A stretch of DNA of 64,000 bases from an uncultured Gemmatimonadales bacterium (GTDB lineage: Bacteria > Gemmatimonadota > Gemmatimonadetes > Longimicrobiales > Gaopeijiaceae). The position numbers and the translations under genes were made by a program. The stretch covers positions 3,104,001 through 3,168,000 of the forward strand of contig CAWELD010000003.1 in NCBI GenBank assembly GCA_963809895.1. The letters run 5' to 3'. This document shows positions 28,402 through 46,382 of the stretch, one piece after another (position 1 is the first letter of the stretch; each line of letters begins with the position of its first letter). The notes under the pieces are model-generated. The model saw only the letters and a list, made by a program, of their open reading frames with translations, did no database searches and was not told where the DNA came from.

Positions 28402-28602
28402 CCTGGCCGTCACAGCCGCCAGTGCGAACATGGTCTTCGCAGCCGCCAACCGTCGGGCCACCACCCGATGGCGGCGAATCCCAGGATTATCATGGTGTCC
28501 GCCGCCCGCGACTCCCGCCGCACCCTCCGCGGCTGCAAACGACAGGATAGTCATGGCCTTCGCAGCCTTCGCCCTTCCCCACTTCCATCTCTGGCTGCGA
28601 AC
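28402..28602 (+). repeat. Palindromic repeat mini-array, copy D
   Basis: Half units at 28402 and 28429; full units 28470-28506 and 28531-28567; half unit 28593-28602. Confidence 0.9.
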
Positions 28603-28686
28603 CCCACGCCGGGCACGACCATATTGTGGAACCGGGACGACCTGAAGTCCTGGCACGATCGGGGTCGGGTCTCTCATTCTTCTCGG

Positions 28687-31374
28687 ATGTCTGACCCCAT
28701 TACCCGTCTCAACCTCGCCCTCTCCGACCGCTACCGCATCGAGCGCGAGCTCGGCGAGGGCGGTATGGCCACGGTCTATCTCGCCCAGGACCTCAAGCAC
28801 AAGCGCTCGGTCGCCCTCAAGGTGCTCAAGCCCGAGCTCGCCGCCGTGGTGGGAGCAGAGCGGTTCCTGGCCGAGATCGAAACCACGGCGAACCTGCAAC
28901 ATCCCCACATCCTCCCGCTGTTCGATTCGGGCGAGGCCGACGGTTTCCTCTATTACGTCATGCCGTATATCGAGGGTGAGTCGCTCCGAGAACGGCTGGA
29001 TCGGGAGGGGCAGCTCCCGGTGGAGGAGGCAGTCCGACACGTCTCGGACGTGGCAGAAGCCCTGGGCCACGCTCACCGCCGAGATGTGGTCCACCGCGAC
29101 ATCAAGCCGGCCAACATCCTCATCCAGGACGGTCGGCCCGTGGTCGCCGACTTCGGGATCGCGCTCGCCGTGGGGAGCGCCGGAGGCGCACGCCTGACCG
29201 AGACCGGTCTCAGCGTCGGCACGCCGTACTACATGAGCCCCGAACAGGCCATGGGCGACGCCCCGGTGAGCGCCGCCAGCGACATCTACGCCCTGGCGTG
29301 CGTCCTCTACGAGCTCCTCGCCGGCGAGCCACCCTTCACGGGCGGCACCGCCCAGGCCGTCCTGGCCAAGATCATCACGGGGGGACCACCCTCGATCCTC
29401 GAGGTGCGGTCCGCGGTGCCGCGAAACGTGGACGCAGCGATCCGTCGCGCCCTCGAGCGGGTCCCCGCCGACCGCTTCCCTTCCGCGAAGGCGTTCCGGG
29501 AGGCGCTGGCCGATCCTTCCTTCCGCTATGGCGAGGATCCTGAGGCGACCGCTGGGCATCCCTCGCGTCGTCTTCGACTCGTCACCGCCGGCGCTCTCGC
29601 CCTCTCGGTGGCTACGACCGCGGTAGCGGTGGGGGCTTTCACCCGGCTGTCGGAATCACGAGGTCCCACGCGGGTGTTGACCCAGGAGCTGACCCTCGGG
29701 ATCGGCGCGCCCCGGACCAGCTTGAATATCGCCGAAGTGTCCGACGACGGCCGCTGGATTGCGTACAACGGCAGCGACCAGAGGGGCGTCGCCTCGATCT
29801 ACGTCCGGAACGTGACGGAGCAGGCGGCGAGGCTGCTGCCCGGTACGCGAGACGCGCGCCGTATGGCCATTTCGCGGACGAGCGACGAAGTCGCGTTCAC
29901 ACAGATATCCCTCGGACCGTTGAAGGTCGTATCTCTCGAGGGCGGGCCGGTACGGGTCCTGGCCGAGGGCGCCCAGGCGCGACCCGTCTGGGGGGACGAG
30001 CACATCTACTTCGTCAACGCCGAGCTCGGGATCAGCCGCGTACCCATCGAGGGCGGGGCGGTGGAACGGGTGACACCGGTCACGGACGACGGCGTGGTCC
30101 GAGCTCCCACCGACGTGTTGCCCGGGCGCGACGTCGTGATCTTCACCGAGTTCTCCCGCGGAGGGGGGGACGAAACGGTCCGGGCCCTTTCGCTCGCTTC
30201 GGGGGAGATGAAGACGCTCGCCGACGGAGCCGGAGGTGTCGTGAGAGACGGCGTCCTCCTCTTCGCCGCCGCATCGCAGGACGGCCTCGAGGCCGTCCCG
30301 ATCGACCCTGAGACCCTGGATGTAGCGGGCAAGCCGGTCACGGTGGCCACCGGGCTCGTCTCCGTCGGCCCCCTCTTCGGCGGGTTGCTGTTTCGCGTGA
30401 GCCAGTCTGGCGACCTGATCTACGGCATGGCCGGGCAACGCGAGGAGAGCGTGACTCATCCGGTGTGGGTCGATCGGTTGGGAAACGTCACCACCATCGC
30501 GACCGAGTGGCGCGTCTCGCCCGTGATCTCCGTGTCCTCGCTCGCTCTGTCACACGACGGCACCCGTCTCGCGGCGTCCAGCGGAGGAGCGGGCCAGAAC
30601 GACCTGGAGCTCTTCATACAGGATCTGCAGGGAGGACCTCTCCGGCGAATCGCCTTCGACGAGCCGATCAGCACCCGTCCCTTCTGGAGCCCGGACGACC
30701 AGGAAGTCTACTACTTCGAGGACCCCAGCGGGTCGTTCCTCGAAGGGAACCTCGTGGCCCGGCGGGCCGATGGAAGTGGTGATGCCCGCATCATCGTGCC
30801 CGACGTGGGCATCGGAGACGGGGCGTGGAGCCGGGACGGCGCCTGGATGGTCTTCCGGGTCGGTGTGCCGGCCCGCCCGAGCCGGGACATCTTCGCGCTC
30901 CGGGCGGGCACCACCGAGCCCATCGAGCTGGTGGCCACCGACGCCACCGAGCAGGCCCCGTCCCTGTCGCCGGACGGAAGGTGGCTCCTCTACCAGTCCG
31001 ACCGGACCGGGCAGCACGAGGTCTACGTGCGCCCCTTCCCCGAGGTCGACGACGGCCTCCAGCAGATCTCGCTCGACGGAGGGACCGAGCCGCGCTGGGC
31101 CCACTCCGGTCGGGAGATCTTCTATCGGGACGATGAGGGACGCATGGTGGCGGTACAGGTGGAGGCGGGCGACCGAGAGCTGCAGACGTTGGATCACGAC
31201 GTGCTCTTCGATGCCACCCCCTTCTGGTCGGACCCTGCTTCGCAGCAGTACGATGTCGCGCCCGACGACCAGAGGTTCCTGATGCTGCGAGGCGAAGCCG
31301 GTCGCAACAATCTCGTCGTGAGCTGGAACTGGTTCGAGCGGACCAGGCACTTGATCCAGGAGGCGAACCGGTAG
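28687..31374 (+). CDS. Hanks-type Ser/Thr kinase with TM and TolB/PD40 propeller
   Basis: GEGGMATVY, VALK, HRDIKPANIL, DFG, GTPYYMSPE; SPDGRW repeats. Confidence 0.95.
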   Translation: MSDPITRLNLALSDRYRIERELGEGGMATVYLAQDLKHKRSVALKVLKPELAAVVGAERFLAEIETTANLQHPHILPLFDSGEADGFLYYVMPYIEGESLRERLDREGQLPVEEAVRHVSDVAEALGHAHRRDVVHRDIKPANILIQDGRPVVADFGIALAVGSAGGARLTETGLSVGTPYYMSPEQAMGDAPVSAASDIYALACVLYELLAGEPPFTGGTAQAVLAKIITGGPPSILEVRSAVPRNVDAAIRRALERVPADRFPSAKAFREALADPSFRYGEDPEATAGHPSRRLRLVTAGALALSVATTAVAVGAFTRLSESRGPTRVLTQELTLGIGAPRTSLNIAEVSDDGRWIAYNGSDQRGVASIYVRNVTEQAARLLPGTRDARRMAISRTSDEVAFTQISLGPLKVVSLEGGPVRVLAEGAQARPVWGDEHIYFVNAELGISRVPIEGGAVERVTPVTDDGVVRAPTDVLPGRDVVIFTEFSRGGGDETVRALSLASGEMKTLADGAGGVVRDGVLLFAAASQDGLEAVPIDPETLDVAGKPVTVATGLVSVGPLFGGLLFRVSQSGDLIYGMAGQREESVTHPVWVDRLGNVTTIATEWRVSPVISVSSLALSHDGTRLAASSGGAGQNDLELFIQDLQGGPLRRIAFDEPISTRPFWSPDDQEVYYFEDPSGSFLEGNLVARRADGSGDARIIVPDVGIGDGAWSRDGAWMVFRVGVPARPSRDIFALRAGTTEPIELVATDATEQAPSLSPDGRWLLYQSDRTGQHEVYVRPFPEVDDGLQQISLDGGTEPRWAHSGREIFYRDDEGRMVAVQVEAGDRELQTLDHDVLFDATPFWSDPASQQYDVAPDDQRFLMLRGEAGRNNLVVSWNWFERTRHLIQEANR

Positions 31375-32241: not shown

Positions 32242-32630
32242 CCGATGTGGACCGCAGGAGGTCCAGGCTGTGCGGATCCCGCACCTGCCCCCCACACAGC
32301 ATGCAGCACTGCTTCGTGGAGCTCCGGGAGGACGTGGACCCACCCGTCCTGTTACGCGCGCCCCAAAGCCCACGCCACATGCTCCCGCACCAGAGACTCC
32401 GGATCCTCCAGCGCCTCCCGCAACACCTCCACCGCCTCCTCCGGCGGCTCGTCCACCGAAGCCAGCCAGTTCCCCATGGCCACCGCGACGTTGCGCTTGA
32501 ACCCGGCGTAGCCCGCCCGCCGAATCGCCGAGCCACGCGAGAACGCGTCCCAGTCCTCGCGGGTCATCCGCATCAGCTCCACCAGCGACGGCGCATAAGT
32601 CCCCGGATGCGGGGGATTACCGACACCCGA

Positions 32631-32707
32631 CGTTTCAACTGAAAGATTCTCTTCGGTCAGCCCGGGATCGGCCCGGCCTCTACCATCGCGCGTTTCAGCT
32701 GAAACGC
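32631..32707. promoter_or_regulatory. Two parS-like palindromes 60 bp apart
   Basis: GCGTTTCAGCTGAAACGC (32690-32707, perfect) and CGTTTCAACTGAAAG (32631-32645). Confidence 0.4.
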
Positions 32708-32803
32708 TCCTCCGCCGGGAACCCCTCCACCCAGAAGGGCAGCTCCCCCGCCCCCCGCGCCGCATACCCCGGCTCCGCGCTCACCTCCGCGAAGCGCACG
32801 TTG

Positions 32804-32821
32804 AACGGACACACCTCCTGG
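32804..32821 (+). repeat. att core, left copy (AACGGACACACCTCCTGG)
   Basis: Identical to 41997-42014; flanking bases differ on both sides. Confidence 0.92.
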
Positions 32822-32904
32822 GAGGATTGCCCACTTCCGCGTTACGGGATTTCGCTGAGTACGGGCGATTCAAACAGGGATCGGGCGAATGCTGATCCTG
32901 ACGC

Positions 32905-34024
32905 TCATTCGTGAAGAAGGAGTTCTCGGGCTTCCTGCATTGCCAGGGCTGCTTCCTCTTCACTCAGTCGGATGACGAGATTCCCGGAGGGCTGATCCCC
33001 CAGCCATGGACGCATGTGTTTCCGCCACAGGTCGTAGAGTACAGGCGGGTCAACCGGCACCGGATAGGATCCAAGCGCGAAGGAGCGTCGCGTTCTCGCA
33101 TCATCGTCGAGCTGTTCCCAGTCTTCGGCTGTCGCCCGAAGGCCTGCCTTCAGATCCTGACCGGTGACGAAGGACTGCTCCGCTCCGGTCAGTTGCGGAG
33201 CAAGAAGGCGGTGAACTCGGTCGTCGGAAGCGAGCACATGGGCAAAGGGCATGTAGAAGAGGTACTGCAGGTCGATGAGGTGGGTAGCTCGATCAGAAAG
33301 GAACCGGTGACGTACGGCGATCGCGAGTGAGAGCAGGCACCGAATGCAATGGGCAGCGTACGGGGCGTACTCCTGAGCGTAGGTGAAACCAGAGGCCTGC
33401 CATTGCCGTCTTGCTTGTACCCGTTCAGGCTCGCGAGTTATCAGGGTCTGGAGGGCCCACTCGAACCACACGTCCTGAAGCGCCGTCACCGCCAGCAGGT
33501 CATCCGCGATCAGAACGATTCGAGATTCAGAGTCTGGACGGGGGAGAACGACACGGTTCTCGTTCAGGTACCGCGAAAGAGACGCGACGGAGGCCGAGCG
33601 CAGTGAGCCGCCGCCAGTACGCCGACATCTCAGCCTCTGATTCCGTGAACTGCCCCTGCGACCAGCGGAGGATCGCCTCGTTGAGCGGCGACAAGTCGAT
33701 GTGGACGCCACCTGAGCTGCTCTGGAAGAAGTTGTCGGGAAGGATCTGCCCCGTCATGGGAACCACTCCGCCCAGGAGATCGACGCGGGCGAGTTCCCGA
33801 TACGGGGCGTTCACGGGCCCTCCACTCCCACCGAACTTCCTTGCGAGCGTGGCGACCGCATCGGCGGGCCGTTTGCCGGCTGCCACATCCTTCGTGAGGT
33901 CTCCCAGCACCTCGTAGACGAGCACTGGCGTGATGTTCGGGTACAGATGCTGGAACACCACCACGTGCTCCCTCGCAGAGAGAGCCTGGAACGCTGACTT
34001 GTCGAAGATCGTGATCGGCCCCAT
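32905..34024 (-). CDS. Hypothetical, possibly PIN-like nuclease; one indel near 33600
   Basis: N-terminal TIFDKS and VYEVLGD; C-terminal IDLQYLFY...VLASDDRVH; joins ORFs 33527-34039 and 32905-33711. Confidence 0.6.
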
Positions 34025-34119
34025 GGGCCTTACCTCCACCTCGGGGCCGGTTGAGCTGGCCGATCACTTCCGTGTGGGTTTGCCGCCGCCGGTCAGCCAG
34101 TCAGGGTAGGCCCATCCAG

Positions 34120-36639
34120 TCACGGCAGTCGCGATTCGATCTCTACCTGGGCGGCGGATCGCACCTGCGCTTCTATCTCGGCTTCAACAGCAGTGTATAG
34201 GTCGATCTCCTCCTCGGGAGCGCGGATGCTCACGACGAGCGAGTACCGGGCGGGGAGGTGGTAGCGGTCCATGGCCACGTCGTCCTTCCACCATCCGCCA
34301 ACGGGGTAAATGCCAATGGCGTTTCGGTGAGCCAGGTCGGCTGCGGTCCCTCGCCAGACGTCCGAGTGGATTGAGCCGGAGTTCCTGACGCGCGTGTGGA
34401 GGTCCCAGCGGTCCGAATCTGCCGGACGTACCACGTCGACGTCATCCGACCGCTCAGCTCCACTCAATCGAGCCCGGAACTCGTCGTCCGTCTCGAGCGG
34501 ATGCTTAGCCTCGAACCTGAGGCCGTGCGAAGCATACTGATACCGTCGCTTCCAGCCCCTGTCACCGGGCCTTGGTTCGATGAAGTAGCTGAGCGTGACG
34601 CGCATTTCTACCTCGACCTCCCCGAGGTCGAGCATGAGGTCTTGCGGCCACGGCAGCGGATGAATGTGCATCTCTCGCGTACGCGCGGCTGCGCCGTTCC
34701 GCTCATACGGGCGAAGTTCATCTTGCGCCACGAGGGTGAGGTCATTCCTGGCGCTGTAGAGCGCCCTTTCGAGACTCGGCACGCCATACCCGAAGCGCCT
34801 GAGCAGCGTCTGCTTGTCGAGCAGCCTCAGGGTGCGCACGTCCGCACGCGACCTGGCTCCGGCGCGCCGTAACATGGCTGGTGTCCACTCGGCCGAGTGC
34901 ACAATGAGCGCCCGGATAGTTTCCGGCCATGCATTTGGAAGCTCGGCCGTCAGGTGGCCCGCGAGCTGCGCCGCAAGCGCGGAGGCCGCGCTCGTGGCCC
35001 CGAAGGGGCGATACAGCGCGAGCGCGAGCTGGTTGTTGGTTGTCAGCAGGCTCAGGTCATCGTGTGAGACGGCATGCCGACCGTTCACGATGAGGTTGCC
35101 ACCTTCAAGGACAACGTCCGGCTTGCTCGGCCATGACCTGTCCCACGGGACGGCAGTGCGACTCGTCGGGCACAGGTCTCCCGCGTCGGCCAATGGGGTT
35201 GCGTGCTGGACGGCCGGGTCCACGATGTTGACCCGTTCAGTGAACGCCCCCACGGTGAGAGCGTTCCACGCTTGGGCGGGGCTCTGGATGCCCGCGATGT
35301 CGTTCGCGTCAAGGTAGCCGGCCGGCGTGATCTGGTCCTCGTGCAGGTTACCGGCGGCGACGACGATAAGCCGCCGCGGCTCTCCGTCACCTCCGAAGGC
35401 CATTTGATCCAGTGCCGCCGACCACGAAGACGGCGTACCCCCGTCGTTCGCCGTTTCGGTCGTGGCAAGACAGACAACGCGGCGTCTATGCGGGGCCTGA
35501 GCCTCGGCGCGTGCAACACCCTCCTGCGTGATCGCACCGTAGAGTTCCGGCGGGTTCTGGCCAGATGGAGGGAGGATCTTGACGGCCTCGAGGCGATGCG
35601 TTCGGCGGACGGCGCCAGCCCCAGCAAGCACCCCCGTGAGATCACCGAACGCAGCGAGACCGGCCATGCCCGTGCCGTGTCCGCGCCATCGCGCTGCGTC
35701 ATCGGCCACGCCCCAACCCGGTTCGACCGTGTGTTGGTCGGCGGCCGCCAGAATATCTTCGAGGAGCGGATGCTCACGATTCGCCCCGCTGTCGAGCACC
35801 GTCACAGCTGTTTCGGATTCGACCGGACCGAGGCGCTCCCGCAGGTCCTCGGCCCACGCGGCTTGCTCGCGTGCGGGGAGGTCCAGAAAGAACGTCGGGA
35901 CATCGCCCGCGAGCCTGACCTCAGCGAAGGCAAGCGACTCATGCATGAGCGCAGATAGCCGCTCTGGCGTCGCCAGAGCCAACACCACCTCGCGACCTGG
36001 AAACGTGAGGAAGTGGGGCCGAACCGTGATCTCCAGAGTTCCGGCTGCCGCGAGGAAGACGTCTCGGCGCCCACTCCGGAGCCAGACTTCCCACCACGCT
36101 TCCTGATGAGGCGGTGGGAATGATTCCTGATCCCCCACGTAGATGGAGCGAAGCTCGGCCAGTCGAGCCGTTTCCATCCGCGTAACGAGCCGCTCGTTCC
36201 TTGGGCGTCCGCTACGGCTGTCCTCTCTGGTTCGGTATGCCTCTACCTTGCGGATGATCCGGTCTCCAGAGTCCTGAGGCACGAACAGCGTCGCGACAAG
36301 CTGGTCCTGTTCTTCGTCCGCTCGCGCCGACAGGAGTTCGATATTTCGGACCCGGTGTTCCAAGCTCTGCAGGACCGCTTCCTCACCCGACGGCAACCTG
36401 ACTTCCAAGTAGTATCCGAGTTCGTCGTTCGCGAACTCCGTCCTACGGTTCTCGAGAACCACGTCCCCCTCGGCGAACGCCTCTCGCAGTGCAGTCTCGA
36501 GCGCACGAGCGTGCGCCTCACGATTCCGAGCGGGGTTCGGGGGGTGCTCTATGGGTGGGCCGGGCGGGCGGGTGTACGGAGCAGGTTCGCCGCCGCCTTC
36601 GCGGTAGAAATGCGGAAGGTCGCGAGGGTACACAAGCAC
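34120..36639 (-). CDS. S8 subtilisin-like peptidase (IetS-like)
   Basis: Catalytic triad motifs VLDSG, HGTGMAG, GATSAASA; AAGN; KPDVVLEGGN; directly downstream of AAA ATPase. Confidence 0.93.
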   Translation of the reverse strand: MLVYPRDLPHFYREGGGEPAPYTRPPGPPIEHPPNPARNREAHARALETALREAFAEGDVVLENRRTEFANDELGYYLEVRLPSGEEAVLQSLEHRVRNIELLSARADEEQDQLVATLFVPQDSGDRIIRKVEAYRTREDSRSGRPRNERLVTRMETARLAELRSIYVGDQESFPPPHQEAWWEVWLRSGRRDVFLAAAGTLEITVRPHFLTFPGREVVLALATPERLSALMHESLAFAEVRLAGDVPTFFLDLPAREQAAWAEDLRERLGPVESETAVTVLDSGANREHPLLEDILAAADQHTVEPGWGVADDAARWRGHGTGMAGLAAFGDLTGVLAGAGAVRRTHRLEAVKILPPSGQNPPELYGAITQEGVARAEAQAPHRRRVVCLATTETANDGGTPSSWSAALDQMAFGGDGEPRRLIVVAAGNLHEDQITPAGYLDANDIAGIQSPAQAWNALTVGAFTERVNIVDPAVQHATPLADAGDLCPTSRTAVPWDRSWPSKPDVVLEGGNLIVNGRHAVSHDDLSLLTTNNQLALALYRPFGATSAASALAAQLAGHLTAELPNAWPETIRALIVHSAEWTPAMLRRAGARSRADVRTLRLLDKQTLLRRFGYGVPSLERALYSARNDLTLVAQDELRPYERNGAAARTREMHIHPLPWPQDLMLDLGEVEVEMRVTLSYFIEPRPGDRGWKRRYQYASHGLRFEAKHPLETDDEFRARLSGAERSDDVDVVRPADSDRWDLHTRVRNSGSIHSDVWRGTAADLAHRNAIGIYPVGGWWKDDVAMDRYHLPARYSLVVSIRAPEEEIDLYTAVEAEIEAQVRSAAQVEIESRLP

Positions 36640-36651
36640 GTCAGCCGATCG

Positions 36652-37629
36652 TCACCGGTGTGAGGATTTTCGTTCTGCGATCGCAGAAAGGAGGGTATCG
36701 AGGTCGATCTGGGGCTTCCGCTCGAGAATCGCCGTCTTCGCTGCCTCGTCCGCGGCTCGGGCGACATCGGCTTGGCTCATTCCGGAGGCGGCGCCAGCAA
36801 CTGTCTCCCAGTCGACGGCGCTCGTATCGAACGTCGCAAGCCGCGCATGCATAATCCCGATGGCCACTTCCGCACCTGGCAGAGAGTATTCGATCACATC
36901 GTCGAACCTGCGAAACAGAGCGGGATCGAGTAGTTCCAGATGGTTCGTCGCTGCGATGACAAGCCCTTCGGATTCGTCCTGTTCGAGGAACTGCAGGAAT
37001 GAGTTGAGTACTAGGCGTATTTCTCCGACATCGTTGCCGGCGGACCGCCGGGAGCCGATAGCGTCGAACTCGTCGAAGAAGTAGACGCCTCGCGTCTGTG
37101 CCATGGCGTCGAACACGAGCCGGAACTTGGCGGCAGTCTCTCCCAGGAACTTCGTCAGGACACCCTCCAACCGGATTGTGAAGAGAGGGAGTTTCAATTC
37201 GCCGGCGAGGGCTGCCGCCGTCATCGTCTTGCCCGACCCGGAGGGGCCTACCAGCAACAGCTTTCTCCGTGGCATAAGCCCGTGGGAGCGAAGCTTCAAC
37301 TGTTGCTTCTGCTCATTCAGAACCCGTTTGAGCCGAAGGGCGACCTCATCGGTCAAGACCATGTTGCCGAGCCGAAGGTCCGGGTAGATGACCGAGAGCA
37401 GGTTCGCGATGTCGCCCTGAGGCGGCGTGAGCGGAATCGCGCCCTTGCGCTCGACGGCTGACCGCTTCGCCTTCGCTTCGTCGATGAGCTCACGAAGCTC
37501 CTGTGCGATCTTGGAGTGACCCCGACGAGCCTCATGAGCGGCGGCTTGCATGGCCACGGCCATGAACTGTGCATCATACCCCTCGATGTGGCTCCGCAGC
37601 AGAGCGATGATGTGGCGAGCTGTGCTCAT
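36652..37629 (-). CDS. AAA+ ATPase (IetA-like)
   Basis: Walker A GPSGSGKT, Walker B FFDEFD, SRH AATNH..LLDPALFRRFD. Confidence 0.95.
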   Translation of the reverse strand: MSTARHIIALLRSHIEGYDAQFMAVAMQAAAHEARRGHSKIAQELRELIDEAKAKRSAVERKGAIPLTPPQGDIANLLSVIYPDLRLGNMVLTDEVALRLKRVLNEQKQQLKLRSHGLMPRRKLLLVGPSGSGKTMTAAALAGELKLPLFTIRLEGVLTKFLGETAAKFRLVFDAMAQTRGVYFFDEFDAIGSRRSAGNDVGEIRLVLNSFLQFLEQDESEGLVIAATNHLELLDPALFRRFDDVIEYSLPGAEVAIGIMHARLATFDTSAVDWETVAGAASGMSQADVARAADEAAKTAILERKPQIDLDTLLSAIAERKSSHR

Positions 37630-37774
37630 CGTCGAGGAGTCCGAATCTTCTGGTGGGACCGGTGTGCCGTCGTGTGCCGTACGCGCGAGTAAAATGGTTC
37701 GGGATCAAAGGGGAATATATCCTGGCCCTCGATTCTGGCCCGGCCGCTTTGATGGTAGGATGTAAGCGGCCTCG

Positions 37775-38757
<983 letters not shown>

Positions 38758-39193
38758 GTCTCTGGCGGCGAGATTCACCCTTCTCAATCTGGCCTCCGGG
38801 AGGCGGCACCGCCACCGGATGACCCACCGCCTGCCCGGCAAGGGGGCATGTATCGTGTTGGTGAGCACCAAGCCTTGACGACGACGTTCCCCGACCGCGC
38901 CTCACATCACGTCAGCCCGCCTGAATGGAGGTGGTGCATAGTTGCCGCACCTGACCCCGTCGCAGTCTGCAACCCTTGCGGGCGGATAGCGCCGGCCGGC
39001 CGGCCGGTGTAGGCATCCGCGTTCACGTGTTGTCGAAAGGGCCTTCCTCCAACGACGCTATCCCTTCCCTGGCGCGGTGGCCGCTCCAACTCGAATCCGT
39101 GAATCCCCTCACCACCGGTACAGTGGCATCCAACAGACCAGCCCGCCTCCGGGAAAGGCGATCCCACACGAATCGAAGACCGGGAGACGCGCA

Positions 39194-39571
39194 ATGTCGC
39201 AAGCTCTGAATGCCATCGCGAAGGACTGGCGCCAGGAGGCCGATAATCTCAGCAGCCGCTACGCAGATGGCCGTCTCGCTGCGCTCTGCGAGACCCACGC
39301 CGGAGAGTTGGACGCACTCCTCAGGACCCAGCTCGACGAGGAACTGACTTTGAAGCAGGCAGCTCGGATCAGCGGATACAGCTATTCGCACCTGCGTCGC
39401 CTCCTGGACGCGGGGGAACTGGCCAACATGGGGATCGAAGGGCGCCCCCGCGTGCGCCTTGGTGATCTGCCGTTCAAGGCTGGGCGGGCCGTGCCCCTCG
39501 GAGCGCTGAGTGCCGCGAAGCGGGCGCAGAGCCGTGTGAAGGCCAAGGGTCGGGTACGCCCGATCGGGTGA
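39194..39571 (+). CDS. HTH_17/excisionase-like DNA-binding protein
   Basis: LTLKQAARISGYSYSHLRRLLDAGEL; immediately upstream of the recombinase. Confidence 0.8.
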   Translation: MSQALNAIAKDWRQEADNLSSRYADGRLAALCETHAGELDALLRTQLDEELTLKQAARISGYSYSHLRRLLDAGELANMGIEGRPRVRLGDLPFKAGRAVPLGALSAAKRAQSRVKAKGRVRPIG

Positions 39572-39652
39572 CGAAGGGGGAGTGCCCGCCGGTGGGGCGG
39601 GATCGCAACTACGAAGGGCACACACTCACACGAACACAGACCCCTCAGATCC

Positions 39653-41709
39653 ATGAGCAAGAAGAACGTCATCATCGTCGAGGAAAGGAAGCCCGACCTG
39701 CACGGGGATTCGGTCTTCGAGGTAGAGCTGGAGCCTGGCGTCGAGGCCTCCCCGATTCGCTGGAGCGGTCAGAGCGAGCCGAGGCTCTGGTCCCTCACGC
39801 TGACGCATGTCAGCGGTCTGCAGGTGGTGGTGAGGGAGCGGGTTCGCGGCACTATCGAACTCGAATCGGAGTTCATCGACAGACGCGGAGGTGTTCTCAC
39901 GGTCAAGCCCCTGGTGGGGTTCTTCCCGATCGGATTCGTGTCACACGGAAGAGCTCGCGCGAGGATGAGAAACAGAAGTTCTCGCATGATCAGCAGAACG
40001 ACGACATGACAGCCGAATGGGGGGCGATCGACCCGGTCTGGTGGTGGAAGGAGAGCCGGAGCGGAACCAGCTTCGATCGTCCCTCCTTCCAGGACGTGCT
40101 CGACTTCTGTCGGTCCAATCCTCGCCCTGTCGGGGAGCCCGGCAGAGTGGAATGGTGGGCACCCCACCGGTTCGGGCGTAGCCTGGACGTGAACGGCCAG
40201 CCGGACATCATGAAGTTCATGGCCATGTACAACGAGTTCCAGAACCCGGAGTGGCACCTCCACTTCCTCAAGGTCCCCGGGTGAACCATCCCCTGGGGGA
40301 CGTGTTGAACATCGCTGTCTATGCCTACGCCGCGGCGGTGTACTCCAAGGACCTCTCGGAAAACGCCACCCGCGGTCGGCGTAGCGAGGGCGAGAAGGGT
40401 TGGTGGGTGAACGGCCAGGCTCCGTGGGGGACGAAACGCAAGGACACCCTTGAGGACCGAATTCTCGAGCCTGGCGAGAAGTCGAAGCCGGGTGGCGGGG
40501 GGACGATCCTGGTTGAGGACCCGGACATCCTACCGCATTGGAGGCCGTCCGCGGAGTCGTTCCTGGCGGGCGCCTCGTACAAAGGCATCGGCGAGGACCT
40601 CTACGACGTCGGCTTGCGCGGTCCTCAGGGCGGCGCCTTGGGACACCGACACATCCGGAACTTCCTCACGAACCGGCACCTGATCGGCGAGGTGAAGGTC
40701 CGAGACGCGGATGGCAACGTACAGTGGCCCCCGCCAAGTGGGATGCGCTGGTCGATCGCGCACTGTTCGAGAAGGTCGTGCAGGAGGCGGAGCGGCGGAA
40801 GTCACAGCCCCGGGACAAGAAGCGCACGTCGAAGGGGACCTTCCTCCTGCGGCCCGCATGCGCCCACTGCGGGATCGAGTACCACGGCGGACGTAACGGA
40901 AAGAAGCAGGGGAGTGCATGCACATACGTCCACCCGAAACCCCACAAGGTCCATCACCCCGAGATCTACGACGCCTATGTGGAGCACGAGTGCCGCGGGT
41001 GGACTGTACTCGCGGACGAGCTCGAAGGGGCGGTCAAGGACCTCATTCTCCGTGAGCGGACGTCTGTAGGCTACGAAGAGGAGATCCGGGCGCTGATCCT
41101 GGAGAAGGAGCAGTTCGAGCAGGGCGCCGCCGCCGCGGTGAAGGCGGCTGAGCAGAAGGTTGAAGACCTGGAGACCCAGCATCGGAGCCAAAGCCGGAGG
41201 TTGGCTCGTCTTCAGGAGAGGGAGATCGATGAGGACGCGCCCCTCGACGAACTGCGAGGCGACCCAGCAGAAGCTCAACGCCGCCCGATCAGAGGTCGAG
41301 AAGGCGCACGAGTTCCGACGCTCCCGAAGAGGTGGCCTGGGACCGCCTATCGAAGGTCATCGACGAGACGCGCAACCTTGCCGAGACGTGGGACAAGGTC
41401 GGGCTCGATGAGCGTAGGCTCCTACTCGACTGGTGGGTCCTGGACGTCCAGATCGTCGTGGAGCCGATCGAAGGGATGAAGAAGGCCAACGAAAAGACGG
41501 CCATCGTGACGCTCCGAAGTGACCCGAACGCCTCCCGCTACTTCGGGCTCGGTAACCGCCTCTCCAAGGCCGACTCGAGTTCGCCCCGGACGAACGCGTC
41601 GTCTTCTGATTCCGACGCCGCCGACAGCACGTCGGCGGCGTCTGCCGAGTCGATGCACCGCAAGCGCCCCGGCGGCGTGCCCGCGAACCAATGGATCAGG
41701 GTCTTGTAG
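39653..41709 (+). CDS. Large serine recombinase; several indels; 3' end uncertain
   Basis: Reconstructed VYTRKSS catalytic motif, SGTSFDRPSF, HRFGRS, LSENATRG..G.W.NGQAPWG, WDALVDRALFEKV, CAHCG zinc ribbon, coiled coil. Confidence 0.9.
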
Positions 41710-42895
41710 CGCCGACGCCAGCACGGGAACCGCCGCGTCCAAGCCCCAGTTGCCGAGTGCCACGCAGACGTTGCGGGCGAACCCGGAGCGTCCTGCACGT
41801 CGGATGGCGGAGCCGCGGGAGAACGATCCCCAGGAGGACTCGTCGAGAGCGGTCGTCAGCAGGTCGATCAGCGACGGCGAGGAGGTGCCGGGGTACCAGA
41901 CGTCCGACGGGAGCGGGCTCCACGCCGAACGGTGGTTGTCCTGGCGATCGGGCAGAGTATGCGGGCTCGGAGGAGGGGGTTGAGAACTTACGGGTAAACG
42001 GACACACCTCCTGGCAGATGTCGCAGCCGAACACCCGGTTCCCCATGAGGGGGCGGAGCTCTTCGGGAATCGCGCCACGGTGCTCGATGGTCAGGTAGGA
42101 GATGCACCGGGTTGCGTCCATGACCGGCGCGCCGTCCTCGTCGCGTCCCAGGAGCGCGCCCGTGGGGCAGGCGTCGAGGCACGCCCGGCACGAGCCGCAG
42201 TGGTCCGCCTCGAAGGGCTCGTCGGGGGGCAACTCCACATCCAGCAGCAGCACGCCCAGGAAGAACCACGAGCCTCGCCGGGGATGGATGAGCATGGTGT
42301 TCCGGCCGAACCAGCCGAGGCCGGCGCGCTGTGCCAAGTCCCGCTCGAGAATCGGGCCGGTGTCGACGTAGGCGCGGCCCGCGACTGCGGCGGGCGCCTC
42401 GGCGCCCTCTCTCCGCGCACCACCACCCGCGCCATCCGCGCCGCCGCCCGGCGGCCCGCCGACCCGCTCGTCTCCACCAGCACGCGCCCCCACTTCTCCC
42501 TCCAGCCACCGCAGCAATCCGAACAGCTTCTTCTTCACCACCTTGTGGTAGTCCCGTCCGCGCGCGTAGCGGGCGATGACGCCCACCCCGGGATCCCCCG
42601 GGACTCCGGGTGCGTCCTCCTGGAAGTACTCGTGGGCCACCACCAGCACCGAACGGACGTCCTCGAAGGTGCCGCGCAGATCCTCGCGGCGAGCCACCGC
42701 CTCGGGGCGGGCGAGGTAGTCCATGTCGCCGTGGCGACCCTCGGCCAGCCAGCGGCGGAAGAACGCCCCGTGCCTCGACGCGTCCGGCCGCGCGATGCCG
42801 GCAAGCGAGAACCCGCGCCGCCGGGCCTCCTCCTTCAGGTCGTCCGCGAGCCTTCGCGCCAGCACCCGCCGCCGCGCCGCACCTTCGTCCGTCAC
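41538..42895 (-). CDS. queG: Epoxyqueuosine reductase; hybrid of host 5' part and island-supplied 3' end; two indels in the 3' part
   Basis: ARYARGRDYH, YVDTGPILERDLAQRAGLGWFGRN, CGSCRACLDACP, CISYLTIE, GCDICQEVCP, ARNVCVALGNW. Confidence 0.95.
41997..42014 (+). repeat. att core, right copy
   Basis: Identical to 32804-32821; encodes QEVCP of QueG on the minus strand. Confidence 0.92.
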
Positions 42896-43992
42896 GCCGC
42901 CCGACCCCTCCGGTTGCGGGCCACCACGTCGAGAATGCGCTCGTGCTGCGCGAAGATCACGAGCTCGTCGCCCGCCGCCACGCGCTCGTCGGGCTCGGGG
43001 TCCACGGTGACGCTGCCGTGCCGGCACACCAGGACGATTTCCATGGTGTTGTCACGCTCCAGGTCGCCCACCGCTGCCCCAGCCAGGAACGAGCGCTCCC
43101 CGACCGTGAGCCGGATGGTCGAGTACTCCTCGCCGCCGATCTCCAGCGTCTGGGTGATCTCGATACCCAGCGCGGCCCCGGCGAAGGCGGGGGCCGACAG
43201 GTCGGCGGCGCTCATGACCGTGTCCACCATGCCGAAGCGCTGCATCTGATCGCCGATGGCCCGGTCCCACACCCGGGCCACCACCCGCACCTGACCGTTC
43301 AGCTCCCGCACCTTCATGACGGTCTCGAGGTTCACGCGGTCGTCGCCGGTGCACGCCACGAACACCTCCGCATGGGGCAGACCGGCGCGCTCGAGCGTGA
43401 TCGCCCGGCGGCCATCCCCCATAACCACGGGCACGTTCAAGCTCTCCAGCACCTCCTGCACTTCTTCGTTGGGACTGTGGTCCACCACCACCACCGGCAG
43501 TCCCATGTCCCGCAGGTCCCTCACCACACGCAGGCCCACGTGCCCGGCGCCGAAGACGATGGCGTGATTGCGATAGGTCATGGCCAGGGCCTCCCCCCAG
43601 CGGTCGCGGTTGTCGTCGCGGTTGAAGAACAGATCGAGAAAGTCCGCCGCGCCCAGGCCCACCAGCACGATGAACGTCACGGGCATGAGGTACCAGAACA
43701 GCGCCAGGTACCACGCCGACGGCACGTCTTCCGGGGCCTCCAGCAGCATGAGCTGCACGATGACGTAGGGGCGGTCGAACAGCGGGATCGCGGCGCCGCC
43801 GGCCAACCGGTGCAGCTCGCCGTAGACCAACCCCCCGATCGCCGTCACGAGCACGAATCCCCAGATCGAGACCCGGAACTCGCGCAGCAGCGCCAGGAAG
43901 TGGTAGCGCACCGCACTCACCCGTTGCACCGCACGGCGCAGGGCGGACACGCGCCGGGGCGCAGCCAGGCGACTGCCGACGACGCTGGACAC
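42892..43992 (-). CDS. TrkA-family (RCK N/C) potassium channel-like protein
   Basis: N-terminal TMs; HAIVFGAGHVG; CTGDDRVNL; TrkA_C tail; GTGA overlap with queG. Confidence 0.85.
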   Translation of the reverse strand: MSSVVGSRLAAPRRVSALRRAVQRVSAVRYHFLALLREFRVSIWGFVLVTAIGGLVYGELHRLAGGAAIPLFDRPYVIVQLMLLEAPEDVPSAWYLALFWYLMPVTFIVLVGLGAADFLDLFFNRDDNRDRWGEALAMTYRNHAIVFGAGHVGLRVVRDLRDMGLPVVVVDHSPNEEVQEVLESLNVPVVMGDGRRAITLERAGLPHAEVFVACTGDDRVNLETVMKVRELNGQVRVVARVWDRAIGDQMQRFGMVDTVMSAADLSAPAFAGAALGIEITQTLEIGGEEYSTIRLTVGERSFLAGAAVGDLERDNTMEIVLVCRHGSVTVDPEPDERVAAGDELVIFAQHERILDVVARNRRGRAA

Positions 43993-44159
43993 GGGTGGAG
44001 CCTCCCGGATGAAGGAAATGCCACCGCGGCGACACCCGGTGACGCGGCCCGCCGCGCGTGAAGGGTAGTCAACCCGACCCCGGACCGCACGGAACGTGTC
44101 TTGCTCTAGAGGAACTGGGGACCGCGGGATGGTTCGCATCCCCGATAGAGGAGGAAAAG

Positions 44160-44534
44160 ATGGAGGCAATTGGAGCAGCAGGTGGGCCATCGCCGAGGGC
44201 TACATCCCCGAGGAGAGCACGGGTCCCGAGCCCGCGATGACGAGCCACGAGACCGGCGTGCCTCCTCAACACCTCGGATCGGGACGCCCACGTGCGACAT
44301 CACGGTCTACTTCGCGCGACCGCGAGCCCGTCGGGCCCGTATCGCGTCACGGTCCCGCCCCGGCGCACCCGCCACGTCCGCTTCAACGACCTCGACGACC
44401 CGGAGCCGATCCCGCGGGGGACCGACTACGCCAGCGTGATCGAGTCCGACGTGCCCGTCGTGGTGCAGCACACGCGGCTGGACTCGCGGCAGGCGGAGAA
44501 CGCGCTCCTGACGACGATCGCCTATCACGAATGA
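44160..44534 (+). CDS. Sensory rhodopsin transducer (ASRT) family protein; frameshifted
   Basis: WAIAEGYIP..SHET; RRTRHVRFNDLDDPEPIP; IESDVPVVVQHTRLDSRQAENAL. Confidence 0.85.
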
Positions 44535-44563: not shown

Positions 44564-46382
44564 ATGAGCCAGACCGTCGCCGACTATCTCGTGCACCGCC
44601 TCCGCGAGTGGGGCGTCGACCCGCATCTTCGGCTATCCCGGGCGACGGCATCAACGGGATCATGGGCGCCCTCAACCGCGCCGAGGACGAGGTCGAGTTC
44701 GTCCAGGCCCGGCACGAGGAGCTGGCCGCCTTCATGGCCTGCGCCCACGCCAAGTTCACCGGCGAGGTGGGCGTCTGCCTCGCCACCTCCGGGCCCGGCG
44801 CCATCCACCTGCTGAACGGCCTCTACGACGCCAAGATGGACCACCAGCCGGTGGTGGCCATCGTCGGCCAGCAGGCGCGCGCCGCGCTGGGCGGCGACTA
44901 CCAGCAGGAGGTGGACCTCGATCTCCCTGTTCAAGGACGTGGCGCACCACTACGTGCCACATGGCCACGACGCCGGAGCAGACGCGGCACCTGGTGGACC
45001 GCGCCGTGCGCATCGCGAAGGCCGAGCGCGACGTCACCTGCATCATCTTCCCCAACGACGTCCAGGAGCATCGACCACCGAGGAGCCCGCCCCGCGCGCA
45101 CGGCACGGTGCACTCCGGCGTCGGCTACACGGCCGCCGCGCGTGGTCCCGCACGACGAGCGACCTGCGAGCGCGCCGCCGACGTCCTCAACGAGGGCGAG
45201 CGGGTCGCGATGCTGGTCGGGCCAGGGCGCGCTCGGCGCCACGCGAGGAGGTGATGGAGGTCGCCGACCTGCTGGGCGCCGGCGTGGCCAAGGCCATGCT
45301 CGGCAAGGCGGTCCTCGACGACGACCTGCCCTACTGCACCGGCGCGCATCGGCCTGCTGGGCACCAAGCCGTCCTGGAACCTCATGCAGGACTGCGACAC
45401 GCTCCTCATGGTCGGCACGAGCTTCCCGTACTCGGAGTTCCTGCCCGCCCGAAGGCCAGGCGCGCGGCGTCCAGATCGACATCGAGCCCCCGCATGCTCG
45501 GCATCCGCTACCCGACCGAGGTGCAACCTGGTCGGGCGACGCGCAGGAGACGTTGCGCGCGCTGATGCCCCACCTGGACCGCAAGGCGGACCGCCGCTGG
45601 CGCGAGGACGATCGAGGAGGACGTGGCCGAGTGGTGGACAGCTGCTCGAGGCGCGCGCCATGAACGACGCCGATCCCGATCAACCCGCAGCGGGTCTTCT
45701 GGGAGCTCTCGCCGCGCCTTGCCCGACGACGTGCATCCTGGCGTCGGACTCGGGCTCGGCGGCCAACTGGTACATGCGCGACCTGAAGGTGCGGCCGGGC
45801 ATGATGGCGTCGCTCTCGGGCAACCTCGCCACCATGGGTCCGGGCGTGCCCTACGTCATCGCGGCCAAGTTCGCCCATCCCGACCGGCCCGGCGATCGCC
45901 CTGGTCGGCGACGGCGCGATGCAGATGAACGGCATCAACGGCCTGATCACCATCGCCAAGTACTGGAAGCGACTGGGAGGATCCCGCGCCTGATCGATGT
46001 GCGTGCTCAACAACCAGCGACCTGAACCAGGTGACCTGGGAGCAGCGCGTCATGGAGGGCGACCCCGAGTTCGAGGCGTCCCAGAACGTCCCCGGGCTTC
46101 CGCTACGCGCGACTACGCCGAGCGGCTCGGCCTCAAGGGCATCCGCGTCGAGGACCCGGAGGCGCTGGGCCGGCGCGTGGGACGCGGCGCTCTCCGCCGA
46201 CCGGCCCACCGTGCTCGACGTGCGAGACCGACCCGAACGTCCCGCCGCTGCCGCCCCACATCAGCTTCGAACAGGCGCGCAAGTTCGCCCGCTCCATGCT
46301 GGAGGGCGACCCGCACCGGCGGGGCGTGATCGAAGCAGAGGGTCAAGGAGATGGTCGAGACCCTCGTTCCGCGAGCAGCTGA
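44564..46382 (+). CDS. Thiamine-pyrophosphate-requiring enzyme (pyruvate oxidase-like); many indels
   Basis: PGDGING, QARHEELAAF, TSGPGAIHLLNGLYDAK, SGNLATMG, GDGAMQMNG. Confidence 0.88.

What the first reader, a model, noticed from the sequence alone, without database searches (positions are those of the whole stretch)
32352..42895. Serine-recombinase island integrates in the Fe-S motif of queG and supplies a divergent replacement C-terminus
Seen: an exact 18-bp direct repeat (32804-32821 and 41997-42014) encodes QEVCP of the CDICQEVCP cluster-binding motif. queG continues into about 460 nt of island DNA encoding a complete but divergent C-terminus (FSRGSAIRRAGRSGFARNVCVALGNW plus a longer HEAT-like tail). 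The original end (FSRGSAIRRAGYAGFKRNVAVAMGNW) is stranded 9.2 kb away. A short dyad CCTCC-TG-GGAGG (32814-32825) may mark the crossover dinucleotide. Known: gene-restoring integration is described for tRNA genes and some protein genes such as icd and prfC; I do not recall queG as a described target. Inference: integration and excision would switch the queuosine enzyme between two alleles.
Basis: partly seen in the sequence, partly recalled or inferred. Interest (0 to 1): 0.8.

Follow-up and report, generated by a model that had tools for sequence, protein, structure and literature searches.

The report
Integrase hotspot that rebuilds queG
A family of mobile elements in Gemmatimonadota bacteria inserts into the middle of the tRNA-modifying gene queG and brings a replacement gene end. 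The opposite strand of that same DNA is kept readable as part of the element's own integrase gene, and in some genomes the site has collected long rows of gene cassettes.

Summary
The island is real: 9,193 bp, bounded by an exact 18-bp repeat, inserted at the CA of the Gln codon in queG's CQEVCP motif. Its serine recombinase (LSR) belongs to a queG-specific Gemmatimonadota clade: 26 of 28 LSR 3' ends abut an antisense queG 3' part. This copy is decayed. As assembled, both queG ends and the LSR are frameshifted, and the LSR lacks its start and partner ORF, so allele switching here is unlikely.

Relatives add two features. (1) The LSR has no stop of its own. It reads antisense through ~140 replacement codons (0 stops in 2,858 codons, about 20 expected) to the crossover, and gains a conserved 25-residue tail only at attP-type junctions. 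This resembles Mx8 and the rumA integrases. (2) The site accumulates units mostly without a recombinase, at least 19 in one genome, each carrying a queG end under purifying selection and cargo rich in toxin-antitoxin pairs.

No activity was shown. My paper searches found no queG target. The scan noted similar tricks at miaB, spoIVB, comEC and ettA, none at queG. Verdict: new variant of a known kind.

The parts
42014..42895 (-). Host queG 5' part (cobalamin-binding and ferredoxin domains up to the Cys equivalent to B. subtilis C243); only copy in the genome
   Evidence: Pfam QueG_DUF1730 and Fer4_16; single tblastn hit; homology of relative L031 QueG to PDB 5d08
41997..42014 (.). Right copy of the 18-bp repeat; attL with crossover dinucleotide at 42012-42013 (CA of the Gln codon on the minus strand)
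41538..42013 (-). Element-supplied queG 3' part (last Fe-S Cys plus HEAT-like tRNA-binding domain); two extra bases near 41917 and 41660 as assembled. Its opposite strand is the LSR read-through region
   Evidence: 85% identity to the G038 island allele
39910..41553 (+). Large serine recombinase core, decayed: first ~14 profile positions and start missing, single-base indels near 40275, 40728, 41255 and 41327
   Evidence: Pfam Resolvase and Recombinase; 53-73% identity to intact L031 LSR
39653..40009 (+). ORF of unknown function lying where relatives have the conserved ~75-aa partner ORF and the LSR start
   Evidence: no Pfam match; partner ORF not found in G000
39194..39571 (+). HTH_17 (excisionase-like) protein; not found next to other LSRs of the clade
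   Evidence: Pfam E 1e-4; no homologue in fetched loci other than the window's own
37786..38724 (-). Mrr-like restriction endonuclease cargo; its 3' end runs through a 41-nt poly-T (37872-37912) that is probably an assembly artefact
   Evidence: Pfam Mrr_cat; related contigs skip 37846-37979
36652..37629 (-). IetA AAA ATPase (IetAS defence / toxin-antitoxin pair)
   Evidence: PADLOC E 1.5e-68
34120..36639 (-). IetS subtilase-family protease
   Evidence: PADLOC E 1.6e-34; Pfam Peptidase_S8
32905..34039 (-). Cargo ORF of unknown function, split by an extra base at 33602 that related contigs lack
32819..32914 (+). Element arm that encodes the conserved integrase tail (31 codons here, 25 in the commonest form); in frame with the LSR only at an attP-type junction
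32804..32821 (.). Left copy of the 18-bp repeat; attR with crossover dinucleotide at 32819-32820 inside the dyad 32814-32825
32352..32820 (-). Stranded, genus-type queG 3' part; frame shifts near 32710 as assembled
   Evidence: starred clade with same-genus intact ends
42892..44190 (-). TrkA-domain gene upstream of queG; host context conserved in same-genus genomes

Best explanation
The window holds a decayed member of a Gemmatimonadota family of integrative elements whose large serine recombinase targets queG. Shown by sequence comparison: (1) crossover at the CA of the Gln codon between the last two Fe-S cysteines; (2) attP is an imperfect ~45-bp palindrome whose one arm doubles as queG coding sequence, so integration restores a full QueG with an element-type tRNA-binding domain and strands the old end; (3) the LSR gene has no stop of its own, reads antisense through the whole replacement end, and ends at or shortly after the crossover when integrated, while at attP-type junctions it gains a conserved 25-residue tail; (4) the rebuilt site is reused, giving rows of stranded queG ends that separate cargo blocks, most without an LSR. 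Inferred: the tail is a functional part of the integrase, so integration truncates the enzyme and damps further recombination, as reported for Mx8. A conserved ~75-aa helical ORF coupled to the LSR start is the likely directionality factor or partner. LSR-less units arise by accretion followed by loss of the recombinase, or by mobilisation in trans. In this genome the element is immobile in cis.
For: Architecture repeated in independent genomes and metagenome contigs: 26 of 28 LSR 3' ends, and 33 of 43 homologous proteins carry the antisense-queG tail up to the crossover motif, the other 10 being 326-624-aa fragments. Arm symmetry is highest for the attP pairing (15.3 of 25, against 8.3-11.8). 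Antisense frame: 0 stops in 2,858 codons, 20 of 20 open, against 13 in 1,539 (3 of 12 open) for intact LSR-less queG and 19 in 3,101 (13 of 30 open) for stranded ends. Tail: stop after 25 codons in 16 of 35 sites, and pN/pS 0.65 in the LSR frame against 1.06 and 1.24 in the other two; 12 of 23 further sites stop at the same place. Seven natural ORF fragments carry linker and tail in one frame. Sister LSRs lack the antisense extension. Partner ORF in 21 loci, and in 3 of 401 genomes, the three with a full-length LSR in one frame. Precedent for att sites inside integrase genes: PMC4701971, passages.
Against: No recombination, excision or expression was observed, and no free circle or full-length LSR with the tail was found. 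The loci are related and several are near-duplicates, so the stop-codon counts overstate independence. Codons 2-9 of the tail overlap the DNA-binding arm. The AlphaFold model of an attP-form fragment is low-confidence (mean pLDDT 52). Two of 28 LSR ends (L105 and L113, near-identical) keep only a short queG remnant. Whether the window's single-base indels are real or sequencing errors is unresolved.
Confidence: 0.72

Rival explanations
1. Integron-like cassette system: LSR-less units of the form [queG 3' end - cargo - element arm] circularise between neighbouring attR-type sites and are re-inserted at the head of the array (the queG crossover) by an LSR supplied in trans; each must carry a functional queG end.
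For: The tail-plus-att profile matches 31 of 401 genomes, the LSR only 11. G315 has 19 hits (only 19 candidates scored), G288 7, G375 6 and G298 6. Fourteen G315 units show dN/dS 0.30-0.33 with open frames through the RN motif. Units of 790-1,141 bp are present, and two such intervals hold just a toxin-antitoxin-like pair. In G375, G057, G113 and G396 the intact queG itself carries the short 75-84-aa unit-type end with no LSR beside it. 15 of 31 stranded ends match their own genome's intact end best, and all 14 G315 units match that of same-genus G375 (76-89%).
Against: Host-type arms are less symmetric with the element arm (11.8 of 25) than element-type arms (15.3). No circles were seen. Purifying selection may predate stranding. 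RecA-type exchange between the ~300-bp repeats, or accretion with later LSR deletion (known: PMC5357655, passages), explains the same maps. G298 C8 has units in both orientations.
Confidence: 0.3
2. One reading: excision and re-integration toggle QueG between two functional alleles as a regulated host benefit.
For: Two divergent ends (41% identical) that replace the whole tRNA-binding domain (PMC5175355, passages). Many stranded ends in relatives stay open-framed.
Against: The window's LSR lacks its start and partner ORF and has four indels; both alleles are frameshifted as assembled. Both alleles keep the same conserved motifs, so no functional difference is shown. Excision would also remove the defence cargo.
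Confidence: 0.12
3. The open antisense frame and the tail are by-products: a GC-rich shadow frame plus DNA-level conservation of an extended att arm, with no role for the extra protein.
For: The wobble-aligned antisense frame is often open by chance (16 of 42 control copies open). The linker is predicted disordered.
Against: 0 stops where about 20 were expected. Synonymous variation at Leu13, Thr15 and Gly16 beyond the palindrome, and a fixed stop position after variable codons.
Confidence: 0.15
4. Assembly artefact joining two queG alleles from different strains.
For: The region has several indels and a 41-nt poly-T, and no reads of this genome were available.
Against: The same architecture occurs in many independent assemblies. 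Related soil contigs of the cargo end exactly at the crossover, 32821. The junctions match the clade's att consensus.
Confidence: 0.02

Closest known systems
rumA-targeting single serine integrases of streptococcal ICEs (Ambroset et al. 2016, PMC4701971; passages read)
   Same: Serine integrase; att site inside the integrase gene; integration changes the integrase C-terminus; target is an RNA-modification gene.
   Different: There the two genes swap 3' parts with a change of frame and the target is disrupted. Here the genes are convergent, the target is restored, and ~140 codons are coding on both strands.
Myxococcus phage Mx8 integrase (as described in PMC4701971; original paper not read)
   Same: attP within int; the integrated form has a shortened C-terminus, reported as less active.
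   Different: Tyrosine integrase. The reduced activity is only inferred here, and no antisense host-gene replacement lies inside Mx8 int as far as I recall.
Gene-restoring elements such as e14 and phage 21 at icd, SXT at prfC, dusA-associated islands (recalled, not read)
   Same: The element carries a replacement end of a protein-coding target gene.
   Different: Those are tyrosine-integrase systems as I recall. Here about 140-165 codons including an Fe-S ligand and the whole tRNA-binding domain are replaced, and the replacement lies inside the LSR reading frame.
Tandem accretion of ICEs/IMEs and decayed islands (Coluzzi et al. 2017, PMC5357655; passages read) and SCC composite islands at rlmH (recalled)
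   Same: Repeated integration at attL or attR of a resident element, followed by module loss, builds arrays at one gene.
   Different: Arrays here reach at least 19 units, some under 1.2 kb, each with a coding queG end under purifying selection and an integrase-tail fragment.
Chromosomal integrons (recalled; PMC8618304 seen only in a search listing)
   Same: Rows of recombinase-less units bounded by repeated sites, with many toxin-antitoxin pairs.
   Different: Serine rather than IntI tyrosine recombinase; double-stranded att-type sites with a CA core rather than attC; units often multi-gene and up to 30 kb.

Membership tests
Large serine recombinase | N-terminal resolvase-type catalytic domain with Y-x-R-x-S serine motif | tested here: met
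   Pfam Resolvase on homologues, weak in the window (E 0.003); clade consensus RYTRKST with R, K and S nearly invariant
Large serine recombinase | Recombinase domain PF07508 and zinc-ribbon cysteines | tested here: met
   PF07508; invariant C331, C334, H355, C375
Large serine recombinase | att sites as ~40-50-bp imperfect palindromes around a 2-bp crossover | tested here: met
   Consensus arms around CA; attP pairing 15.3 of 25 symmetric, window 16 of 25
Large serine recombinase | Intact reading frame in this genome | tested here: not met
   Four indels and missing 5' end; intact in L031 and others
Large serine recombinase | Catalyses attP x attB recombination, reversed by a directionality factor | not testable with these tools
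   Candidate partner ORF only; no Pfam or PDB match
Gene-restoring integrative element (e14/icd type) | Element supplies an in-frame replacement end of the target | tested here: met
   18 attL loci with open queG frames of 134-165 codons after the crossover; frameshifted in the window as assembled
Mx8/rumA-type split integrase | att site inside the integrase ORF, so the C-terminus differs between integrated and excised forms | tested here: met
Mx8/rumA-type split integrase | Integrated form is less active | not testable with these tools
   No assay possible
Integron | IntI tyrosine recombinase with attI | tested here: not met
   The linked recombinase is a serine enzyme; the site is a queG coding motif
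Integron | Array of recombinase-less units bounded by repeated sites in one orientation | tested here: inconclusive
   Met on each G315 contig and in G375, G288 and G311; mixed orientation in G298 C8
Integron | attC hairpin sites and a cassette promoter | not tested
   Sites were not folded as single strands; promoters were not scanned

The most novel reading that the evidence does not exclude
queG is the anchor of a serine-recombinase analogue of the integron in Gemmatimonadota. A mobile integrase that is complete only in the circular state (its last 25 residues lie across attP, behind a 140-codon linker that is a queG domain on the other strand) loads and shuffles recombinase-less cassettes. 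Each cassette must carry a working QueG tRNA-binding end to take first position, and each donates an integrase tail when excised with the LSR.
Probability: 0.28. Interest if true: 0.88.

Novelty: new variant of a known kind. Interest (0 to 1): 0.66.

Why it matters
It adds an unreported, phylum-level integration hotspot and a conserved att consensus for a new LSR clade, which are directly testable and could serve as a genetic entry site in Gemmatimonadota. It gives an unusually clean natural case of long double-strand coding under selection (host enzyme domain on one strand, integrase linker on the other) and a precise prediction of how integration could switch an LSR off. If the LSR-less units are mobilised in trans, serine recombinases run an integron-like gene-capture array. 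It also means that the QueG tRNA-binding domain is repeatedly exchanged by mobile elements, and that the 700-820-aa 'recombinases' annotated in these genomes are truncated, state-specific forms.

Tried and rejected
Reads: no run holds this genome (best share of words 0.16). Laid contigs were relatives and no piece spans the stretch, so junctions and indels were not verified directly, and no habitat is claimed. Viral collection: no LSR relative and no att-pattern match, so there is no support for a phage carrier. Complex prediction of the LSR core with the tail peptide gave no answer (score 0.02), which is neither support nor counter-evidence. AlphaFold of an attP-form fragment puts a tail strand at 230-234 but at pLDDT about 57; a lead only. 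The partner ORF has no Pfam match (0 of 18), no PDB match below E 0.47, only sub-0.9 Atlas hits, and folds as one long helix, so no fold search was run. The HTH_17 gene was rejected as the clade's directionality factor because it is not found beside other LSRs. The genome-wide frameshift screen was too insensitive to decide between error and decay; one search timed out and crashed. A tail-like motif directly after the core in sister LSR P0088 scored only 4 bits and is not used. In the tree the last ~39 residues of the window's island allele were entered off-frame, which lengthens that branch; its grouping with G038 is 86/31 and not starred, so I rely on the BLAST identities. Of the 31 profile hits, G256 is just intact queG, and the hits in G111, G031 and a second G288 site had no queG piece at my threshold; G116 was not examined. 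No QueH was found in G000 (95% complete). Literature: queG with integration terms gave 0 papers in four searches, and Gemmatimonadota with serine recombinase and genomic island gave 0. Searches returned nothing on this architecture in their listings. Durrant et al. PMC10083194 has no queG in the main text or in 8 supplements held as text, and PMC12884075 has none in 1 supplement. Subscription papers and external island databases could not be searched and may list queG.
Full report
Observation. The repeat at 32804-32821 and 41997-42014 is an exact 18-mer that does not extend and occurs only twice in the 5.33-Mb genome G000. It encodes QEVCP of the motif GCDICQEVCP. The 9,193 bp between the crossovers have GC 0.632 against 0.686 and 0.709 in the flanks. 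They carry an IetAS pair (PADLOC E 1.5e-68 and 1.6e-34), an Mrr-like nuclease, an HTH_17 protein and a serine recombinase. G000 has one queG 5' part and two 3' parts. QueA is present and QueH was not found.

As assembled, neither queG allele is in frame. Against relatives, the island-borne end has single extra bases near 41917 and 41660, the stranded end shifts near 32710, and the LSR has indels near 40275, 40728, 41255 and 41327. Related contigs lack the extra base at 33602, and two of them differ from the window by one gap in 40342-40977 and in 41756-42025 at 97-98% identity. Elsewhere, 87 proteins of relatives covering 26,641 bases of G000 showed one frameshift, the island-borne queG one. 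A TPP-enzyme gene just outside the island also appears in pieces, and a cruder screen was inconclusive, so error versus decay is open for the indels. A larger lesion is not a single-base error: the LSR matches its clade profile only from position 15, and the ~75-aa ORF that abuts the LSR start in 21 other loci has no match in G000. I therefore treat this copy as decayed.

The clade targets queG. A relative in a Gemmatimonadota MAG (L031) has an intact 708-codon LSR convergent with an intact queG, and further stranded ends lie on the same contig. The LSR matched 11 of 401 phylum genomes, two of them only through distant LSRs, and 28 metagenome loci. Of 28 LSR 3' ends with downstream sequence, 26 have an antisense queG 3' part within 150 nt. 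The other two are near-identical loci that keep only its last ~40 codons. Several loci are near-duplicates.

Crossover and att sites. Across 36 element arms and 31 host arms, similarity to queG starts at the CA of the Gln codon. The element arm and the element-type queG arm form an imperfect palindrome around it: 15.3 of 25 positions on average and 16 in the window, against 8.3 for attL, 9.4 for attB and 11.8 for attR pairings. In B. subtilis QueG the motif is Cys240-X2-Cys243-X3-Cys247, Cys247 binds the distal cluster, and residues 257-385 form the HEAT-like RNA-binding domain (PMC5175355, passages; homology to 5d08). The element therefore replaces one cluster ligand and the whole tRNA-binding domain. 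The window's island allele is 85% identical over 117 aa to that of G038 (another family) and 41% to its own stranded allele. The stranded allele sits in a 98/92 clade with intact ends of four same-family genomes, three of them of the same genus. In that 65-row tree, element-type ends need at least 5 changes, so they were probably recaptured from host lineages more than once.

The integrase gene is split by its own attP. 33 of 43 homologous proteins run on for 140-170 residues that are the antisense translation of the queG end. They stop 0 (16 proteins), 6 (10), 28 (5), 58 or 114 residues after the crossover motif; the other 10 are fragments. This frame has 0 stops in 2,858 codons in 20 LSR-adjacent copies, against 13 in 1,539 in 12 intact LSR-less queG genes and 19 in 3,101 in 30 stranded ends; the window's copies were left out. 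About 20 stops were expected, although kin are not independent. Read on across the crossover into the element arm, the frame gives a peptide of consensus WExCRYNRFEIxLxTGxRTL that stops after 25 codons in 16 of 35 sites. Its pN/pS is 0.65 against 1.06 and 1.24 in the other frames, 0.69 for codons 10-20 beyond most of the palindrome, and about 1 past the stop. Of 23 further sites found with the profile, 12 stop at the same place; the profile does not score the stop. Seven natural ORF fragments (P0116, P0119, P0137, P0146, P0147, P0163, P0169) run through the linker into the tail in one frame, while sister LSRs lack the antisense extension. No full-length tailed LSR was found. I infer that the tail is part of the active integrase and is lost on integration. 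Precedents are the streptococcal rumA serine integrases and Mx8 (PMC4701971, passages). A low-confidence model shows a disordered linker and a short tail strand.

Arrays. The tail-plus-att profile matched 31 of 401 genomes: 19 hits in G315 (the number of candidates scored), 7 in G288, 6 in G375, 6 in G298 and 4 in G295; at least one weak hit is plain queG. Some inner junctions are attP-type with LSR remnants (G288), as expected from integration at attL. Most units have host-type arms and no LSR. Fourteen G315 units, spaced 790 bp to 30 kb, keep an open frame of at least 76 codons through the RN motif with dN/dS 0.30. Their cargo includes MazEF, PIN, Fic, DUF4160/DUF2442 and BrnA genes and many Ser/Thr kinase-propeller proteins. 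In G375, G057, G113 and G396 the intact queG itself ends in this short form with no LSR beside it. 15 of 31 stranded ends match their own genome's intact end best among 12 genomes, and the 14 G315 units match that of same-genus G375. This fits LSR-less cassettes entering at the head of the array. It also fits accretion with later deletion (PMC5357655, passages) or homologous exchange between repeats; I could not separate these.

Comparison and novelty. The enzyme meets the sequence tests for a large serine recombinase. The element works like e14/icd-type gene-restoring elements (recalled) and like the Mx8 and rumA split integrases, and its arrays resemble accretion islands and, loosely, integrons, though the integron membership test fails on the recombinase. 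Searches for queG as an integration site gave no paper, and Durrant et al. list none in text or held supplements; unseen supplements and subscription papers may. The scan's own notes describe similar tricks at miaB, spoIVB, comEC and ettA, unchecked by me, and none at queG or for this LSR. Each ingredient has a precedent. The combination of a new target, ~140 codons coding on both strands, a state-specific integrase tail and long LSR-less arrays is a new variant. Interest 0.66.

Noticed in passing
L031:9358-9582 (+) and 20 other loci: Conserved ~75-aa single-helix ORF whose stop abuts the LSR start; found only with this LSR clade; no Pfam, PDB or Atlas match; candidate new directionality-factor family.
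   Followed up: partly
window 44608-46300 (+): Thiamine-pyrophosphate enzyme gene that appears broken into several frames, outside the island; only the N-terminal piece matched Pfam.
   Followed up: partly
window 37872-37912: 41-nt poly-T inside the Mrr-like gene; related contigs skip this stretch; probably an assembly artefact.
   Followed up: partly
window 32821-38838: The same cargo block (IetAS, Mrr-like gene, unknown ORF) occurs at about 89-96% identity in 6.7-6.9-kb contigs of runs X2 and X3 that end at the crossover and diverge before the LSR.
   Followed up: partly
window 28468-31374 (+): Ser/Thr kinase with a propeller-like C-terminal part just beyond the stranded queG end; the same gene type is abundant inside the G315 and G288 arrays, so this flank may be older cargo.
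   Followed up: no
G288:C1:330139-330228 (L209), G111 (L214), G031 (L194): Tail/att-arm matches without an adjacent queG piece; possible secondary integration sites.
   Followed up: no
G235:C41 (L215) and G027:C14 (L219): Sites with AA instead of CA at the crossover (Asn for Gln); in G235 both the intact and the stranded copy have it, suggesting a changed core dinucleotide.
   Followed up: no
G298:C8 (L216-L217): queG-end units in both orientations on one contig; possible inversion between att sites.
   Followed up: no
window 32634-32649 and 32693-32707: Two short palindromic motifs (GTTTCAACTGAAA and GTTTCAGCTGAAAC) inside the variable insert of the stranded queG end, near its frameshift; a similar motif appears in loose ends of related contigs.
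   Followed up: no
P0051, P0053, P0059-P0085: Sister LSR clade without the antisense queG extension; target sites unknown.
   Followed up: no
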